Assembly: GCF_054482595.1 (NCBI RefSeq)
Contig: NZ_CM137008.1
DNA length: 64,000 nt
Strand: one strand, 5' to 3'
Below are positions 4,107 to 61,507 of the stretch, piece by piece (the first letter of the stretch is position 1; each line of letters starts with the position of its first letter). Made by a program: the position numbers and the translations under genes. The notes beneath the pieces were generated by a model that saw nothing but the letters and a program-made list of their open reading frames with translations, searched no databases and was not told the origin of the DNA.

Positions 4107-4196
4107 CGGAGAGATGCCGGAGCGGCTGAACGGACCGGTCTCGAAAACCGGAGTGGGGGCAACTCCACCGGGGGTTCAAATCCCCCTCTCTCCGCC
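4107..4196 (+). tRNA. serU: tRNA-Ser (CGA), 90 nt with long variable arm; 3' part is the phage attachment core
   Basis: GGAGAGATGCCGGAGCGGCTGAACGGACCGGTCTCGAAAACCGG...GGTTCAAATCCCCCTCTCTCCGCCA; anticodon loop CTCGAAA. Confidence 0.9.
4135..4196. repeat. attL core: 62-bp direct repeat (2 mismatches) shared with attR
   Basis: cggtctcgaaaaccggagt[g/a]ggggcaactc[c/t]accgggggttcaaatccccctctctccgcca found at 4135-4196 and 43190-43251. Confidence 0.85.
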
Positions 4197-4243
4197 AAAA
4201 TTCAATCACTTACACATCATTAAGTCAGTGACAAAAATCACAC

Positions 4244-8617: not shown

Positions 8618-8675
8618 AAAAAGGGCGGCAGAGCAGTCACGGAGTAAAACTGATACCGCCAAACGTCACCAGAAA
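8618..8675 (-). ncRNA. dicF: DicF small RNA (ftsZ-targeting sRNA of the dicB operon)
   Basis: Minus strand reads TTTCTGGTGACGTTTGGCGGTATCAGTTTTACTCCGTGACTGCTCTGCCGCCCTTTTT, matching remembered DicF with terminal hairpin and U-run. Confidence 0.7.
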
Positions 8676-9527: not shown

Positions 9528-9851
9528 AGACGCATACCGCTTAGTTACCGCTCTGATAACTCTTACCTGTCCGGCAATGGCGCTGATGTCAATATAAAGC
9601 GCCATTGCTGCTTCTTTGCCGATCCCGTGATGCCTTCCATTCTGATGTTTGACTTCGCCCACTGAGAAATCCTCTGTTTCCCCTTAACGCCGGGGTAGCG
9701 GAACAAAAACCTGCTGCATAGTTATTAAAGTTGGACCCTGCCGTCATGTTCTTACGCCTCGGGCTGGCTACTTAACCCCTGACCACTGCCTGGTAACTCG
9801 AAGTATTGCCCTGCATTCTGTGGGGCGGGGTGGGTTGGTATGAAAAGAAGG

Positions 9852-9889
9852 ATACCCATAGGTATTTAAAAAGTAAATACCCATGGGTA
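9852..9889. promoter_or_regulatory. Candidate OL operator pair (palindromic TACCCAyrGGTA sites) and leftward early promoter region
   Basis: atacccataggtat (9852-9865) and tacccatgggta (9878-9889); related to acctgtgggtat sites between repressor and cro. Confidence 0.45.
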
Positions 9890-9931
9890 ACTTTTTGCGG
9901 TGTCTTAACTGGTGACTAGTTGTTTGGTGAG

Positions 9932-14222: not shown

Positions 14223-14376
14223 AAACGGTTTGCGGGAAAAGGAGAGTTAAGTAGAATTGCAGCGGGTGCTTGAGGCTATCTGTCTCAGGCATGAACACCA
14301 AAAGGCAGATAGAGAAAAGCCCCAGTTAACATTACGCGTCCTGCAAGACGCTTAACATTAATCTGAGGCTCAATCT

Positions 14377-14589
14377 ATGAACGGCAAATCTAGGTTAGCC
14401 TCTTACGTGCCGAAAGGCAAGGAGAAGCAGGCTATGAAGCAGCAAAAGGCGATGTTAATCGCCCTGATCGTCATCTGTTTAACCGTCATTGTGACGGCAC
14501 TGGTAACGAGGAAAGACCTCTGCGAGGTACGAATCCGAACCGGCCAGACGGAGGTCGCTGTCTTCACAGCTTACGAACCTGAGGAGTAA
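14377..14589 (+). CDS. mok: Mok-like leader ORF, in-frame N-terminal extension of hok
   Basis: 70-aa ORF MNGKSRLASYVPKGKEKQA... continuing into the Hok reading frame. Confidence 0.45.
   Translation: MNGKSRLASYVPKGKEKQAMKQQKAMLIALIVICLTVIVTALVTRKDLCEVRIRTGQTEVAVFTAYEPEE
14434..14589 (+). CDS. hok: Hok/Gef-family type I toxin
   Basis: 51 aa MKQQKAMLIALIVICLTVIVTALVTRKDLCEVRIRTGQTEVAVFTAYEPEE; complementary mRNA end elements at 14263-14276 and 14639-14653. Confidence 0.8.
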   Translation: MKQQKAMLIALIVICLTVIVTALVTRKDLCEVRIRTGQTEVAVFTAYEPEE

Positions 14590-16757: not shown

Positions 16758-17123
16758 ATGACTGAACGCATAGAATTTGTTTTGCCTTACCCGCCGACGG
16801 TGAATACCTACTGGCGACGTCATGGCAATACGTATTTCATCTCGGAAGCCGGAAAGCGTTATCGCCGTGATGTGGCGCTAATTGTTCGCCAGCAGCGGCT
16901 GAAATTAAGCCTGTCCGGAAGGCTGGCGATAAAGATTATTGCAGAGCCACCGGATAAGCGCCGCCGCGACCTGGACAATATCCTGAAGGCACCACTGGAT
17001 GCGCTGACGCATGCCGGACTACTTATAGACGACGAGCAGTTTGATGAAATCAATATTGTGCGCGGTCAGCTCGTTCCTGGTGGGCGGCTGGGGATAAAAA
17101 TCACAGAACTGGAGTGCGCATGA
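16758..17123 (+). CDS. rusA: Holliday junction resolvase RusA
   Basis: 121 aa; LPYPPTVNTYWRRHG...RRRDLDNILKAPLDALTHAGLLIDDEQF matches RusA catalytic Asp region. Confidence 0.8.
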   Translation: MTERIEFVLPYPPTVNTYWRRHGNTYFISEAGKRYRRDVALIVRQQRLKLSLSGRLAIKIIAEPPDKRRRDLDNILKAPLDALTHAGLLIDDEQFDEINIVRGQLVPGGRLGIKITELECA

Positions 17124-17809
17124 ATAACCAGTATTTACAGTTTGTGCGTGAGCAGCTCATTATCGCCACCGCTGATTTGAGTGGGGCAACAAAAGGTCAG
17201 CTTGAAGCCTGGCAAGAGAATGCCATGTTCGATACAGGGCGTTACAGGCGAAAAAAAATCCGGTACCGCGATGAAGTGACTGGAAAAATGATAACGCGGG
17301 ATAATCCACCAATCCCGGGAAAGCAATCGCTGGCGAAGGGGACGTCAATTCCTCTGGTCAGTCCGGTTGAGTTTTCGACATCATCGTGGCGGCGGGCTGT
17401 TCTGTCTCTTGAAGAACATCATAAAGCCTGGTTGTTGTGGTGTTACAGCGGGAGTATTTGTTGGGAATATCAGATCGCGATAACACAGTGGGCGTGGAAT
17501 GAATTTAATACTCAATCCGGTACCAGAAAAATTGCAGGGAAAACGCAGGAACGCCTGAAAAAATTAATCTGGCTGGCGGCGCAGGCAGTAAAAGCAGAAC
17601 TTTTTGGTGGGGAAGGTTATGAATACCAGGAGCTGGCATTACTGGCGGGAGTGACAACTAAAAACTGGTCCAAAACATTTACTCGTCACTGGGTTGCAAT
17701 GAAACACATTTTTCACCGACTGGATAGTGAGGCTTTATTGTTTGTAATGAGAACACGTTCAAAACAAAAGACGGCATTTTCAAAGCAAAGTGTTGCAAAA
17801 GTAGATTGA
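17120..17809 (+). CDS. Putative late-gene antiterminator (Q-like)
   Basis: Position between rusA and the tR'-like terminator/lysis genes; ATG overlaps rusA stop; no motif confirmed. Confidence 0.45.
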   Translation: MNNQYLQFVREQLIIATADLSGATKGQLEAWQENAMFDTGRYRRKKIRYRDEVTGKMITRDNPPIPGKQSLAKGTSIPLVSPVEFSTSSWRRAVLSLEEHHKAWLLWCYSGSICWEYQIAITQWAWNEFNTQSGTRKIAGKTQERLKKLIWLAAQAVKAELFGGEGYEYQELALLAGVTTKNWSKTFTRHWVAMKHIFHRLDSEALLFVMRTRSKQKTAFSKQSVAKVD

Positions 17810-17873
17810 AAGGCATATATTTCATGCAAATCTGATATTTTGCCGATTTTGTACGTGATGGCAAAAGCAAACA

Positions 17874-17898
17874 AAACCCGCCCACAAGCGGGTTTTTT
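17874..17898 (+). terminator. Rho-independent terminator downstream of Q-like gene (tR'-like)
   Basis: cccgcccacaagcggg followed by ttttttg. Confidence 0.6.
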
Positions 17899-18018
17899 GT
17901 GCCACTTATCTCGGATAGGCATGGTGAATGCGCTGGTGGAGGAGATAAGGGTGATTTTTAACCAGGTGATTTTTGAATGCTTGCAACATTGATTTCGTAA
18001 CATTATTATCCTGCGCCC

Positions 18019-18094
18019 GGCCCTTTAGCTCAGTGGTGAGAGCGAGCGACTCATAATCGCCAGGTCGCTGGTTCAAATCCAGCAAGGGCCACCA
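18019..18094 (+). tRNA. tRNA with CAU anticodon (Ile2/Met-like)
   Basis: GGCCCTTTAGCTCAGTGGTGAGAGCGAGCGACTCATAATCGCCAGGTCGCTGGTTCAAATCCAGCAAGGGCCACCA. Confidence 0.8.
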
Positions 18095-18095
18095 A

Positions 18096-18172
18096 CCGCC
18101 ACTAGCTCATCAGGAAAGAGCGTCAACCCTTTAAGTTGAGTGTGCGAGGTTCGAGTCCCCGGTGGCGGTCCA
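18096..18172 (+). tRNA. tRNA, anticodon read as UUU (Lys) but loop atypical; identity provisional
   Basis: Acceptor CCGCCAC/GTGGCGG, D and T arms, encoded CCA; anticodon loop CCTTTAA with C at position 33. Confidence 0.55.
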
Positions 18173-18174
18173 GT

Positions 18175-18250
<76 letters not shown>

Positions 18251-18253
18251 TAT

Positions 18254-18328
<75 letters not shown>

Positions 18329-18536
18329 GTTAGAGTCTTTCAGTCTGCGATGATGGGAAATCCCGGAGTGACTGAAAGACGTTTAAGTTATGAATGATCG
18401 CCTTTTTTTGCAAAATTGCTGTGCAGAAATACTAACCTTCGAGCAGGCGATCATTCATAAGCACTCTGCTTTTATTCCGATTAACTGTGGGTGGTTTGTT
18501 GGATAGAGTGCTTTCCTTTCTGTATATATCGTTTCG

Positions 18537-18560
18537 CCCGCTTTTGCGGGTTTTTCTTTT
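18537..18560 (+). terminator. Terminator-like hairpin upstream of holin
   Basis: cccgcttttgcggg followed by tttttctttt. Confidence 0.5.
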
Positions 18561-18620
18561 CAAATCCCTTTCATTTCTCAGTGTAAAACTACGCCATCCG
18601 TTATTTGCGGAGGTGAGGCT

Positions 18621-18836
18621 ATGAAATCCATGGACAAAATTTCAACGGGCATTGCCTACGGCACCTCCGCAGGCAGTGCTGGCTACTGGTTTTTACAGTG
18701 GCTTGATCAGGTCAGTCCTTCACAGTGGGCTGCGATTGGTGTACTGGGGAGTCTGGTTCTGGGCTTCCTGACTTATCTGACAAATCTGTACTTCAAAATC
18801 AGAGAAGACAAGCGTAAGGCTGCACGGGGAGAGTAA
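18621..18836 (+). CDS. Class II holin (phage 21 S-type pinholin) with dual start
   Basis: 71 aa [30 protein letters not shown]...; two start codons (M1, M4). Confidence 0.85.
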
Positions 18837-18840
18837 TTCA

Positions 18841-19191
18841 ATGACTCAAAACTATGAACTGATTGTGAAAGGGATCCGCAATTTTGAGAATAAAGTTACG
18901 GTAACTTTAGCGTTACGGGACAAAAAACGCTTTGACGGCGAAATTTTTGACCTGGACATCTCGCTGGACCGTGTTGAAGGTGCCGCGCTGGAGTTTTATG
19001 AGGCAGCAGCCAGAAGGAGCATCAGACAGGTCTTCCTGGATGTTGCTGCCGGGTTATGTGAAGGGGATGAGCAGTCGCCGGAAAAGCGCCCCGTAATTTT
19101 AGAGGCGCAGAATGTGTGGATAACCTACAAAGGAAAGCTACCAGGAAGAATTACTGGTTCTCTGAAGACTCCTCCGGAATCACAACCTTAA
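18841..19191 (+). CDS. Hypothetical protein inserted between holin and endolysin
   Basis: 116-aa ORF beginning 5 nt after holin stop; no recognisable motif. Confidence 0.45.
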   Translation: MTQNYELIVKGIRNFENKVTVTLALRDKKRFDGEIFDLDISLDRVEGAALEFYEAAARRSIRQVFLDVAAGLCEGDEQSPEKRPVILEAQNVWITYKGKLPGRITGSLKTPPESQP

Positions 19192-42259: not shown

Positions 42260-42843
42260 TGGCATTCAGAATGAGTGAACAACCACGGACCATAACAATT
42301 TATAATCTGCTGGCCGGAACTAATGAATTTATTGGTGAAGGTGACGCATACATTCCGCCTCATACAGGTCTGCCAGCAAACAGTACCGATATTGCACCGC
42401 CAGATATTCCGGCTGGCTTCGTGGCTGTTTTCAACAGTGATGAGGCATCGTGGCATCTTGTTGAAGACCATCGGGGTAAAACAGTTTATGACGTGGCATC
42501 AGGGAACGCGTTATTTATTTCTGAACTCGGCTCATTACCGGAAAATGTTACCTGGTTATCCCCGGCAGGGGAGTTTCAGAAGTGGAACGGCACAGCCTGG
42601 GTGAAGGATACGGAAGCAGAAAAACTGTTCCGGATCCGGGAGGCGGAAGAAACAAAAAACAGCCTGATGCAGGTAGCCAGTGAGCATATAGCGCCGCTTC
42701 AGGATGCTGTAGATCTGGAGATCGCAACGGAGGAAGAAAACTCGTTGCTGGAAGCCTGGAAAAAGTATCGGGTGTTGCTGAACCGTGTTGACACATCAAC
42801 TGCACCTGATATTGAGTGGCCGGAAGAACCAGACACAATGTAA
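42259..42843 (+). CDS. tfa: Tail fibre assembly protein
   Basis: 194 aa; start overlaps stf stop (ATAATGG). Confidence 0.7.
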
Positions 42844-52663: not shown

Positions 52664-53292
52664 TATGTATTCCCTTGTGATTATAATCTTCATGAATATA
52701 TCAATAAGTGCCGTTATCCAAAAAAAAGCACATTTGGATACTATTCTATGAAGTTCATTTTATTTTAAAGATTACATGTAACAAATGTATTTAAAAGATT
52801 TCAAAATGTTTCTAATCTATTTAATATAATTTAGAATTATGAATTCTAAATATAAATATTCATGAAAATTATAAATGTATATCAATATGTTATGAGTTGA
52901 GCGGAAGCATAGGGGGTATCAATGATTGTTGCGCCAAACGGCTGGTGTGATCACGCGCACATTAATGAAGGCATAAAAAAAAGCCGGCATCATGCCGGCC
53001 CAAAAAATATAAACAAGACGATAAAAGGCTAATAACGGAGGCATCATGACACAGAAAAATAAAAAGGTATAATTGTATTCAGTGCTAATATATTGATTAA
53101 ATGAATTAATAAAGCCGATCTCAAAGATAAATAAAATCGCTCAAAACGATTTTTCCTGTATTCACTGCCGTTGCGCAAAAATTATCTATTTGTTCAAAAA
53201 ATGAGTGAGTCTTGACTGGCTCATCCAATGTGGAAAAATGTGACTTTTATCACATAATAGTACTAAGTCTGAATTTTCCGGGTTATCTCAAA

Positions 53293-61420: not shown

Positions 61421-61507
61421 AACACATCAGATTTCCTGGTGTAACGAATTTTTTAAGTGCTTCTTGCTTAAGCAAGTTTAATCCCGACCCCCTCAGGGTC
61501 GGGATTT
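61421..61507 (+). ncRNA. dsrA: DsrA small regulatory RNA
   Basis: AACACATCAGATTTCCTGGTGTAACGAATTTTTTAAGTGCTTCTTGCTTAAGCAAGTTTAATCCCGACCCCCTCAGGGTCGGGATTT matches remembered DsrA including terminator. Confidence 0.85.

What the first reader, a model, noticed from the sequence alone, without database searches (positions are those of the whole stretch)
18335..18462. Two nested long inverted repeats between the tRNA array and the holin gene
gtctttcagtc / gactgaaagac (18335-18345 and 18370-18380) form an 11-bp perfect stem, and ttatgaatgatcgcc / ggcgatcattcata (18389-18402 and 18446-18459) a 14-bp stem with a ~43-nt loop. Such structures in the late leader could be processing sites or a small RNA.
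Basis: seen in the sequence. Interest (0 to 1): 0.3.

Follow-up and report, generated by a model that had tools for sequence, protein, structure and literature searches.

The report
Conserved RNA trailer behind prophage tRNAs
The two inverted repeats are real and belong to a three-hairpin RNA, conserved across many enterobacterial prophages, that sits right behind a prophage tRNA gene cluster; it matches no RNA family in Rfam, no name for it turned up in the papers I could search, and its function is untested.

Summary
Both inverted repeats exist at the stated coordinates. They lie side by side rather than nested, and the second is longer than reported: 16 bp at 18388-18403/18445-18460, with a 41-nt interior. 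A third hairpin (18461-18513) and an intrinsic terminator (18536-18560) follow.

The hairpins are + strand RNA structures. About 120 related (pro)phage loci keep them through compensatory base changes. They hold 121+42 G·U cells against 10+2 A·C cells, so the structure fits the + strand only.

The element always lies directly 3' of a phage tRNA array in the Q-dependent late leader. It occurs next to at least three unrelated Q families and four holin families. The tRNA array has its own conserved sigma-70-type promoter, found in 41 of 42 distinct upstream contexts. Promoter, tRNAs, hairpins and terminator therefore form a self-contained "moron" unit.

About 10% of complete E. coli genomes carry it. 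So do Citrobacter, Yokenella and Phytobacter, phage HK639, and (second hairpin only) Salmonella Fels-1.

There is no Rfam match. It is not PasA-D, AgvB, AsxR or STnc100.

Best reading: it is the 3' trailer of the tRNA operon, released as a stable structured small RNA. A cis-acting processing or stability site is the main rival. Function is inferred, not shown.

The parts
17114..17809 (+). Q antiterminator gene (context: start of the late region)
   Evidence: ORF. Pfam PF06323 Phage_antiter_Q, E = 1.8e-91. RefSeq annotation of an identical locus.
17793..17821 (+). pR'-like late promoter (TTGCAA, 17 nt, TATATT) (context)
   Evidence: Promoter scan. It is followed by a short leader with weak isrK/isrJ Rfam matches at 17825-17898.
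17873..17902 (.). tR'-like hairpin terminator with T-runs on both sides (context)
   Evidence: Sequence aaaacccgcccacaagcgggttttttgtg. The terminator scan reported it on the - strand.
17981..18009 (+). Dedicated sigma-70-type promoter of the tRNA array (TTGCAA, 17 nt, TATTAT, then the G+C-rich stretch cctgcgccc up to the tRNA)
   Evidence: The pattern TTGnnn, 16-18 nt, TAnnnT, ending 5-11 nt before the first tRNA, occurs in 41 of 42 distinct upstream contexts of related arrays, against 1.2% of shuffles.
18019..18328 (+). tRNA array: CAT-anticodon tRNA (annotated tRNA-Ile), Lys(UUU), Thr(UGU), Gly(UCC), 1-3 nt apart
   Evidence: ARAGORN, Rfam tRNA hits, RefSeq annotation.
18335..18380 (+). SL1: 11-bp perfect stem (extendable to 18330-18386) enclosing a conserved internal loop and a small apical hairpin. 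It is an optional module of the family.
   Evidence: Alignment A2 of 22 variants has 3 pairs with compensatory changes and 98.4% of cells paired on the + strand against 85.4% on the - strand. It is absent in loci where the last tRNA abuts SL2.
18347..18369 (+). Internal loop of SL1 that fits the kink-turn consensus: C18348-G18368, bulge GAU, G18352·A18367, A18353·G18366, U18354·G18365, then GGG/CCC
   Evidence: Read. The pattern C-GAU-GA-U...G-GA-G is kept in 20 of 22 variants by the scan while the apical hairpin varies. One of the two misses (L016) still shows the tandem GA on inspection. This is an inference from sequence only.
18388..18460 (+). SL2: 16-bp outer helix closing a junction with an inner hairpin (18405-18429, loop AAAUUGCUG) and a short second hairpin. 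It is the constant core of the family.
   Evidence: helix 1: 4 pairs with changes on both sides. It is present in every family member, including Fels-1, and in L270, which has a different interior.
18461..18513 (+). SL3: irregular hairpin whose 3' strand carries the near-invariant GGUGGUUUGUUGGAU
   Evidence: I5; helix 4: 4 pairs with changes on both sides. It is replaced or absent in some relatives.
18386..18517 (+). Match to covariance model R1 (SL2+SL3 core), the only match in the window
   Evidence: 136.8 bits, E = 7.9e-32.
18536..18560 (+). Intrinsic terminator (GCCCGC-UUUU-GCGGG, then UUUUUCUUUU) ending the tRNA-plus-hairpin unit
   Evidence: A strict terminator lies at the same relative position in 58 of 95 distinct contexts, and about 20 more carry eroded versions.
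18621..18836 (+). Class II (S21-like) holin gene, the first late protein gene (context)
   Evidence: ORF; RefSeq annotation.

Best explanation
The inverted repeats are hairpins SL1 and SL2 of a three-hairpin structured RNA (SL1-SL2-SL3, 18330-18513), encoded on the + strand immediately 3' of a prophage tRNA array.

SHOWN:
- The structures are conserved by compensatory change and fit the + strand only.
- The element is a mobile module that follows phage tRNA arrays in the Q-dependent late leader of many enterobacterial lambdoid (pro)phages.
- The tRNA array carries its own conserved promoter.
- A terminator usually follows the hairpins.

INFERRED:
- Promoter (17981-18009), four tRNAs, hairpins and terminator (18536-18560) form one autonomous 'moron' transcript of about 545 nt. 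It would be made in the lysogen, independently of Q.
- RNase P and RNase E excision of the tRNAs would leave the trailer as a stable RNA. It would be about 230 nt, or about 170 nt if cut between SL1 and SL2, and would be protected by a 5' hairpin and a 3' terminator with a U-tail.
- That RNA would act as a small RNA in the manner of a tRNA 3' external transcribed spacer, as a base-pairing regulator, a sponge or a protein-binding RNA.
- During lytic growth, Q-modified polymerase would read through. The same hairpins would then form the new 5' end of the lysis and morphogenesis mRNA.
For: - Repeats verified and unusually stable fold, z = -5.5.
- About 124 homologous sites found.
- SL2+SL3 alignment A1: 97.5% of 1020 cells paired, 8 pairs and 49 cells changed on both sides, 0 of 500 shuffles reach this, and slid controls give 35-48% paired.
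- SL1 alignment A2: 3 compensatory pairs.
- Strand: 121+42 G·U cells against 10+2 A·C cells.
- Context: the last tRNA ends -1 to 1 nt, 52-58 nt, or about 131-136 nt before SL2 in most distinct contexts. That tRNA is mostly Gly(UCC) but also Glu, Arg, Lys, Met or Thr.
- Promoter pattern in 41 of 42 distinct upstream contexts, against 1.2% of shuffles.
- Terminator 15-35 nt after SL3 in most loci.
- Mosaic neighbours: Q families PF06323, PF03589 and PF06530/DUF1133; holin families S21-like, PF05106, PF16931 and PF16080.
- Neighbouring modules of the same leader (STnc100, PasD, EcOnc27) are proven Hfq-associated sRNAs.
Against: - No expression, end-mapping or Hfq data exist for this element.
- Strict terminators are found in only 58 of 95 contexts. 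Several lineages (the L019 type, L213/L233, L051) have none nearby.
- SL2 occurs alone, after an ORF and without a tRNA, in Fels-1.
- The best-conserved stretches are largely base-paired or lie in hairpin loops, not in an obvious single-stranded seed.
- No complementary target was found in the window.
- The covariation comes from a few clades, so the number of independent events is modest.
Confidence: 0.5

Rival explanations
1. The hairpins are a cis-acting processing or stability element, not a trans-acting RNA. They would be cleavage signals (RNase III on the 16-bp SL2 helix, RNase P on a tRNA-like hairpin, or RNase E in the AU-rich linkers). These would free the 3' end of the last tRNA, which has no downstream tRNA to supply an RNase P cut. 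They would also leave a 5'-terminal hairpin that shields the downstream lysis and late mRNA from 5'-end-dependent decay.
For: - The first hairpin always starts within a few nucleotides of the last tRNA's CCA. The gap is -1 to 1 nt for SL2 (or 6 nt in one locus) and about 2-6 nt for SL1, like the 1-3 nt spacers inside the array.
- The SL2 outer-helix sequence is kept even when its interior is replaced, as in L270.
- The element persists in lineages without a nearby terminator.
- The SL1 loop resembles the variable and T-arm segment of tRNA-Gly (GAUGAUG..GGG..CCCG).
Against: - SL2 occurs in Fels-1 with no tRNA upstream.
- A mere cleavage site would not need three hairpins with near-invariant loop sequences.
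- Neither hairpin carries a 3' RCCA as typical RNase P model substrates do.
- The 16-bp helix is shorter than classical RNase III sites.
- Nothing was tested enzymatically.
Confidence: 0.3
2. The element controls transcription in cis. It could be an RNA that modifies RNA polymerase like the put RNA of phage HK022, or a ligand- or protein-sensing leader that sets read-through of the terminator at 18536-18560 into the lysis genes.
For: - Structured RNA followed by an intrinsic terminator just upstream of genes is the usual attenuator or riboswitch layout.
- There are consecutive stem-loops, as in put.
- HK639, a phage I recall (own knowledge, not checked here) as using put RNAs, carries the element.
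Against: - The terminator type and its distance vary, and it is absent in several lineages. No conserved alternative pairing links SL3 to the terminator.
- These phages all have Q proteins that already override terminators.
- The element lies about 300-500 nt from the promoters rather than directly after them.
- Read-through from a constitutive tRNA promoter into a holin gene would harm the lysogen.
Confidence: 0.07
3. The RNA is a decoy or sensor in the conflict over tRNAs. It would travel with phage tRNA arrays and bind or distract a host tRNA-targeting nuclease or a tRNA-processing factor.
For: - Tight physical linkage to arrays of variable tRNA content.
- The arrays hold atypical tRNAs, for example Lys(UUU) with C33 in this window and odd anticodon loops in relatives.
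- SL1 has a tRNA-like loop segment and a kink-turn-like protein- or tertiary-contact motif.
Against: This is purely circumstantial. No tRNA-like fold was detected by ARAGORN or the Rfam tRNA model in 18329-18520, and no defence gene association was examined.
Confidence: 0.06
4. The repeats are not an RNA element. They could be DNA palindromes (a protein-binding or recombination site, or a MITE-like repeat), a small protein gene (the 38-codon ORF 18390-18506), or chance.
For: - An ATG-initiated 38-codon ORF spans SL2-SL3 in the window, and a related frame is open in many relatives.
- Perfect palindromes can be DNA sites.
Against: - G·U pairs outnumber A·C pairs about 13 to 1, which a DNA cruciform or duplex site would not produce.
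- The ORF has no Shine-Dalgarno sequence and, in most relatives, no ATG. One-nucleotide indels shift the frame between clades, and the frame contains stops in L009, L021, L079, L110 and L112, while the RNA pairs are kept.
- There is one copy per prophage and a median of one place per genome, so it is not a dispersed repeat.
- Chance is excluded.
Confidence: 0.03

Closest known systems
3'ETS-leuZ of the E. coli glyW-cysT-leuZ tRNA operon (a tRNA 3' external transcribed spacer acting as an sRNA sponge; own knowledge, Lalaouna et al. 2015; listed as an sRNA in the tables seen)
   Same: It lies directly 3' of the last tRNA of a polycistronic tRNA transcript and runs to the operon's intrinsic terminator. 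It would be released by tRNA processing rather than from its own promoter.
   Different: No sequence relation is evident. The element is much longer (about 170-230 nt against about 50 nt) and highly structured, it is phage-borne and mobile, and no partner sRNA or Hfq binding is known.
STnc100 / PasD / EcOnc27 (Rfam RF02076; prophage sRNAs between Q and the lysis genes)
   Same: Same genomic niche: the pR' late leader or 'moron' site, same strand as late transcription, about 170-240 nt, ending in an intrinsic terminator. It co-occurs in the same leader in HK639 and Fels-1.
   Different: There is no sequence or model similarity. STnc100 and PasD are not tied to tRNA arrays. They have experimental Hfq and Northern support, and this element has none.
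Stable RNAs 'species 1 and 2' (rnaC, rnaD) in the phage T4 tRNA gene cluster (own knowledge)
   Same: They are phage-encoded, structured, non-tRNA stable RNAs, co-transcribed and co-processed with a tRNA cluster, with function still unknown.
   Different: They belong to a lytic myovirus, with no sequence relation tested or expected, and they sit inside the cluster rather than as a terminal trailer.
GOLLD and ROOL large ncRNAs (own knowledge: often adjacent to tRNA genes in prophages of Firmicutes and others)
   Same: They are structured ncRNAs of unknown function, recurrently next to phage tRNA genes.
   Different: They are 500-800 nt with complex folds, occur in different phyla and are present in Rfam. 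The window gave no Rfam match.
put antiterminator RNAs of HK022 and HK639 (own knowledge)
   Same: They are consecutive stem-loops on a lambdoid transcript upstream of terminators, and the element is present in HK639.
   Different: put sites lie right after the early promoters pL and pR and replace N. This element lies in the late leader of phages that have Q, is tied to tRNAs, and can lack a downstream terminator.

Membership tests
Rfam families (all 4227, including STnc100, AgvB, AsxR, isrK, tRNA and known ribozymes and riboswitches) | Covariance-model score at or above the family's gathering threshold | tested here: not met
   No match inside 18329-18520 at gathering thresholds or at E up to 10. 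Relatives L019 and L001 give nothing, or only far-sub-threshold terminator-like hits.
Pas sRNAs (PasA, PasB, PasC, PasD1/2) of EPEC | Sequence similarity to the E2348/69 genes or to their published probes | tested here: not met
   PasA and PasD1/2 were extracted from E2348/69 (L123, L124), and blastn against the window element gave only chance-level words. The PasB and PasC probe sequences were not seen on reading the element (no tool search was run for them). Model R1 finds nothing in L123-L125.
tRNA 3' external transcribed spacer (3'ETS) RNA | Lies directly 3' of the last tRNA of a tRNA operon, on the same strand | tested here: met
   tRNA-Gly ends at 18328 and the extended SL1 starts at 18330. 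The same holds in most of 95 distinct contexts.
tRNA 3' external transcribed spacer (3'ETS) RNA | Transcribed from the tRNA operon promoter and ended by the operon terminator | tested here: inconclusive
   A conserved promoter pattern lies before the first tRNA and a terminator at 18536-18560. Both are sequence predictions, and terminators are missing in some lineages.
tRNA 3' external transcribed spacer (3'ETS) RNA | Released by RNase E or RNase P processing and accumulates as a stable RNA | not testable with these tools
   Needs Northern blots or RACE in wild-type and RNase mutant strains.
Hfq-dependent base-pairing sRNA | Rho-independent terminator with a U-tail, preceded by an AU/U-rich single strand | tested here: met
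   UUUCCUUUCUGUAUAUAUCGUUUC, then GCCCGC-UUUU-GCGGG, then UUUUUCUUUU.
Hfq-dependent base-pairing sRNA | Conserved accessible seed with identifiable targets, and Hfq binding | tested here: inconclusive
   The near-invariant GCAAAAUUGCUGUG spans the inner stem and the loop of the SL2 inner hairpin, and GGUGGUUUGUUGGAU is mostly paired. No complementary site was found in the window. Hfq binding is not testable here.
Intrinsic terminator | G+C-rich hairpin followed directly by a U-run | tested here: not met
   SL1 and SL2 are followed by GUUUAAGUU and GCACUCUGC, not U-runs. The scan flags only 18536-18560.
HK022-type put antiterminator RNA | Two stem-loops placed directly downstream of an early promoter in a phage lacking N; cis-acting read-through | tested here: not met
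   The position is in the late leader, about 300-500 nt from the promoters, in phages that encode Q. Read-through activity is not testable here.
Kink-turn (K-turn) RNA motif (SL1 internal loop) | C helix ending in a Watson-Crick pair, 3-nt bulge, tandem sheared G·A / A·G, then a non-canonical helix | tested here: met
   The sequence pattern C-GAU-GA-U..G-GA-G is present in 20 of 22 variants by the scan, and one of the two misses (L016) still shows the tandem GA on inspection. The three-dimensional geometry is not testable here.
RNase III processing site | Roughly two turns (about 20 bp) of dsRNA lacking antideterminant pairs; cleavage by RNase III | tested here: inconclusive
   The SL2 outer helix is 16 bp perfect here, and 14-16 bp with a G·U or A·C pair in relatives. 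Cleavage is not testable.
Dispersed repeat (REP/ERIC/MITE) | Many copies in unrelated genomic contexts | tested here: not met
   There is one copy in the window and a median of 1 place per genome, all chromosomal. Every site examined lies in a phage late-region context.
Small protein gene | Reading frame, start codon and ribosome-binding site conserved; substitutions biased toward synonymous changes | tested here: not met
   There are frame shifts and in-frame stops in several relatives, most lack an ATG, there is no SD, and changes are non-synonymous (for example NDRL against NGRC).

The most novel reading that the evidence does not exclude
SL1-SL2-SL3 may be a compactly folded functional RNA: a kink-turn, a three-way junction, and near-invariant loops. 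It would have co-evolved with phage tRNA arrays as a dedicated partner of tRNA biology. It could be an RNase P or RNase III-guided maturation device for the last tRNA, or a decoy or sensor for host tRNA-targeting defence nucleases. That would make it a new class of phage RNA element rather than another base-pairing sRNA.
Probability: 0.12. Interest if true: 0.75.

Novelty: new member of a known kind. Interest (0 to 1): 0.5.

Why it matters
Temperate-phage tRNA arrays are currently discussed mainly in terms of codon supply and evasion of anticodon nucleases. Here a conserved, covariation-supported RNA is physically tied to such arrays. It is present in roughly one in ten complete E. coli genomes, including some Shiga-toxin-type phages. 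It is left blank by genome annotation and absent from Rfam.

If it is a stable RNA made from a constitutive prophage promoter, it adds one more horizontally transferred regulator to the set of late-leader sRNAs (STnc100/PasD, AgvB, AsxR) that reprogramme host physiology.

If it is instead a processing device, it would explain how the last tRNA of a phage array is matured and how late mRNA survives tRNA excision.

Either way it offers a well-defined family, with an alignment, a consensus structure and a covariance model, for curation and experiment.

Tried and rejected
1. Known prophage sRNAs. PasA and PasD1/2 were extracted from E2348/69, the PasB and PasC probe sequences were read against the element by eye, and AgvB, AsxR, EcOnc27 and STnc100 were also checked. 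No similarity was found.
2. Coding ORF 18390-18506. The frame is not conserved.
3. Dispersed repeat or MITE. It is single-copy and always in phage context.
4. DNA-level palindrome. Rejected by the G·U against A·C asymmetry.
5. Trans targets within the window for the two near-invariant motifs. None beyond chance.
6. Pseudoknot or long-range covariation scan on A1. Only weak, non-covarying alternatives appeared, for example CUAAC/GUUGG.
7. Full-text search for the motif strings and for HK639 or 3'ETS-prophage literature. No prior description was found.
8. Genome-wide pattern scan. Most of the 73 hits were chance matches in unrelated phyla. Only Citrobacter, Yokenella and Phytobacter were real.
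9. A hit labelled 'E. coli 042' looked like a possible model strain. It is a 4.69-Mb Swiss isolate with a degraded prophage, which does not look like the well-known EAEC 042 strain.
10. First-ORF neighbour clustering was noisy, so only Pfam-confirmed representatives are used.

Full report
OBSERVATION

The window around the finding reads, on the + strand, in this order:
- a Q antiterminator gene (17114-17809; Pfam PF06323);
- a pR'-like promoter (17793-17821);
- a hairpin terminator (17873-17902);
- a second promoter-like site (17981-18009);
- four tRNA genes 1-3 nt apart (18019-18328: a CAT-anticodon tRNA annotated tRNA-Ile, Lys-UUU, Thr-UGU, Gly-UCC);
- the region in question;
- an intrinsic terminator (18536-18560);
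- an S21-type holin gene (18621-18836).

Both inverted repeats are present. The first is 11 bp at 18335-18345/18370-18380. The second is 16 bp, not 14, at 18388-18403/18445-18460, with 41 nt between the arms. They lie side by side, not nested. A third inverted repeat follows at 18459-18467/18505-18513.

As RNA, 18329-18565 folds into three consecutive hairpins plus the terminator. The energy is -81.7 kcal/mol, z = -5.5, and 0 of 200 shuffles fold as well. Perfect inverted repeats of at least 11 bp are about twelve times more frequent in the window than in Markov simulations. The 16-bp repeat is unique in the window and never appeared in the simulations.

IS IT SELECTED, AND ON WHICH STRAND?

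Phage HK639 carries a copy that is 75% identical. Two pattern scans of viral contigs and one of species-representative genomes, followed by BLAST, nhmmer and covariance-model filtering, gave about 124 homologous sites.

For SL2+SL3 I used 26 representatives below about 95.5% identity (alignment A1):
- The consensus fold has 41 pairs, and 97.5% of 1020 cells are paired.
- Eight pairs and 49 cells have changes on both sides, a level reached by 0 of 500 column shuffles.
- Sliding the 3' partners by 1-3 columns drops pairing to 35-48%.

For SL1 (22 variants, alignment A2), three pairs show compensatory changes.

The mismatch spectrum is strongly one-sided. There are 121 G·U against 10 A·C cells in A1, and 42 against 2 in A2. 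The structure is therefore 97.5-98.4% paired on the + strand but only 85-87% paired on the - strand. That argues for RNA, on the late-transcript strand, and against a DNA palindrome. The covariation comes from a handful of clades, so the number of independent substitutions is modest. Even so, it recurs in three separate helices.

ANATOMY OF THE FAMILY

SL2 is the constant module. It has a 14-16 bp outer helix closing a junction. Inside is a hairpin (U-rich/A-rich stem, loop AAAUUGCUG) and a short second hairpin. One relative (L270) keeps the outer helix but has a different interior. Salmonella Fels-1 has SL2 alone.

SL3 is present in most members, and its 3' strand is the near-invariant GGUGGUUUGUUGGAU. 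It is swapped for other sequence in several lineages.

SL1 is optional. When it is absent, the last tRNA abuts SL2 (gap -1 to 1 nt). When present, the gap is 52-58 nt. Its internal loop (C-GAU-GA-U ... G-GA-G) is kept in 20 of 22 variants by the scan, and one of the two misses (L016) still shows the tandem GA on inspection. The apical hairpin varies. The loop fits the kink-turn consensus, which is an inference from sequence only.

An ATG-initiated 38-codon ORF spans SL2-SL3 in the window. It lacks a ribosome-binding site, shifts frame between clades and carries stops in several relatives that keep the RNA pairs. I rejected it as a gene.

CONTEXT

In most of 95 distinct contexts the element lies directly 3' of a same-strand tRNA array of variable content. 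The last tRNA is mostly Gly-UCC but can be Glu, Arg, Lys, Met or Thr.

Where the array begins with the CAT-anticodon tRNA, 41 of 42 distinct upstream sequences carry the pattern TTGnnn (mostly TTGCA/G-N), 16-18 nt, then TAnnnT (mostly TAT(C/T)AT), ending 5-11 nt before the tRNA. Only 1.2% of shuffles match this pattern, and the flanks of these sites are otherwise unrelated.

A strict intrinsic terminator lies 15-35 nt after SL3 in 58 of 95 contexts, and about 20 more carry eroded versions. Some lineages have none.

The neighbours are mosaic. The Q proteins belong to three Pfam families: PF06323, PF03589 and PF06530/DUF1133. The holins belong to at least four families. One group of loci has a Shiga-toxin-like A subunit upstream.

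Promoter, tRNAs, hairpins and terminator therefore behave as one self-contained 'moron' inside the Q-dependent late leader.

The element is found in these places:
- 535-539 of 5426 complete E. coli genomes, always chromosomal, a median of one copy, never annotated;
- Citrobacter sedlakii, Yokenella regensburgei and Phytobacter ursingii;
- phages HK639, phi467, PhiR47_1, vB_EcoM-606R7 and vB_EcoS-689R5.

COMPARISON WITH WHAT IS KNOWN

Rfam 15 gives nothing for the element, either at gathering thresholds or at E up to 10, in the window and in two divergent relatives.

The literature describes several sRNAs at the 'moron' site downstream of pR': AgvB, AsxR, EcOnc27, and PasA-D. I extracted PasA and PasD1/2 from E2348/69 and the EcOnc27 region from Sakai Sp5. 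None resembles the element, and model R1 finds no match in those loci.

STnc100 (the PasD/EcOnc27 family) is a different module of the same leader. In HK639 it lies downstream of the element, and Fels-1 has three copies.

Full-text searches for the motif strings found no paper. Two topical searches brought up nothing that described it.

By position and architecture, the closest analogues are tRNA 3' external transcribed spacers such as 3'ETS-leuZ, the stable RNAs of the T4 tRNA cluster, and tRNA-adjacent phage ncRNAs such as GOLLD and ROOL. These comparisons rest on my own knowledge. It works like these at most; it is not a member of any of them.

MECHANISM

What is shown: the element is a selected + strand RNA structure, it is linked to tRNA arrays, there is a conserved promoter pattern, and a terminator is frequently present.

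What is inferred, and is my best reading (about 0.5): the tRNA promoter makes a transcript of about 545 nt in the lysogen. tRNA excision releases the trailer, bounded by a 5' hairpin and a terminator with a U-tail preceded by a U-rich single strand. This RNA accumulates and acts in trans.

The main rival (about 0.3) is a purely cis role. The hairpins would serve as RNase III, P or E signals that mature the last tRNA, and as a 5' cap that protects the late mRNA once the tRNAs are cut out. Two observations fit this well: the invariably tight spacing to the CCA end, and the conserved outer helix of SL2.

Transcription control (put-like or attenuator), a tRNA-defence decoy, and non-RNA explanations are less likely, for the reasons given under the rivals.

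VERDICT

What is there is an uncurated, moderately widespread structured-RNA family attached to prophage tRNA arrays. It is a new member of the known kind 'phage late-leader or tRNA-trailer ncRNA', with function still to be tested.

Noticed in passing
window 18096-18172: The prophage tRNA-Lys(UUU) has the anticodon loop CCUUUAA, which puts C at position 33 where U is almost universal. Its Rfam tRNA score is low (44.4 bits, against 65-74 for its neighbours). This could be an anticodon-loop variant that escapes host anticodon nucleases.
   Followed up: no
window 17793-17902: A pR'-like promoter is followed about 50 nt later by a hairpin with T-runs on both sides. There are weak sub-threshold Rfam matches to isrK and isrJ (17825-17898). 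This looks like the short terminated pR' RNA that in other prophages is itself an sRNA (IsrK, StxS).
   Followed up: partly
window 17981-18009 and related loci: A sigma-70-type promoter with a G+C-rich stretch between the -10 hexamer and the tRNA sits immediately before the first (CAT-anticodon) tRNA. It appears in 41 of 42 distinct upstream contexts, which implies Q-independent expression of prophage tRNAs in lysogens.
   Followed up: yes
L073 3695-3767; L033 2532-2604; L074 3069-3142; L012 7253-7326: Related arrays contain unusual tRNAs: one with anticodon UUA (which would read the ochre stop codon), Phe(AAA), and several that ARAGORN cannot assign because of odd anticodon loops.
   Followed up: no
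L028 (and the similar L021, L057, L030), about 1 kb upstream of the Thr-Gly tRNAs: An ORF with a ribosome-inactivating-protein domain (PF00161) and clear similarity to Shiga toxin A subunits precedes the tRNAs and the element. Some Stx-type converting phages therefore carry this RNA downstream of the toxin genes.
   Followed up: partly
L001 2754-2959 (HK639); L199 1273-1486, 1687-1809, 2810-3028 (Fels-1): STnc100 (the PasD/EcOnc27 family) occurs downstream of the element in HK639 and in three copies in the Fels-1 late leader. The late leader is a chain of separate ncRNA modules, each with its own terminator.
   Followed up: partly
window 18536-18560 and relatives: In many close relatives the terminator stem is eroded by G-to-T changes that lengthen the T-run (GCGGG to GCGGT or GCGTT). 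This suggests relaxed selection, or slippage, at this terminator.
   Followed up: no
window 8623-8674 (-), 14264-14439 (+), 42602-42800 (+), 52976-53065 (-), 61421-61507 (+): Rfam gathering-level hits elsewhere in the window: DicF, sok (with hokD), IS009, rseX and DsrA. The window is an E. coli chromosome region with a Qin-like lambdoid prophage whose genes begin just after tRNA-Ser (serU, 4108-4197).
   Followed up: no
L072 about 9620-9900: An IS3-family transposase gene (OrfA-like, MPMSGKRYPEEFK...) begins right after SL2, at the position SL3 occupies in other loci, in one relative.
   Followed up: no
window 18841-19191: A YdfR-family ORF sits between the holin and the lysozyme gene, inside the lysis cassette (RefSeq annotation of the identical locus).
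   Followed up: no
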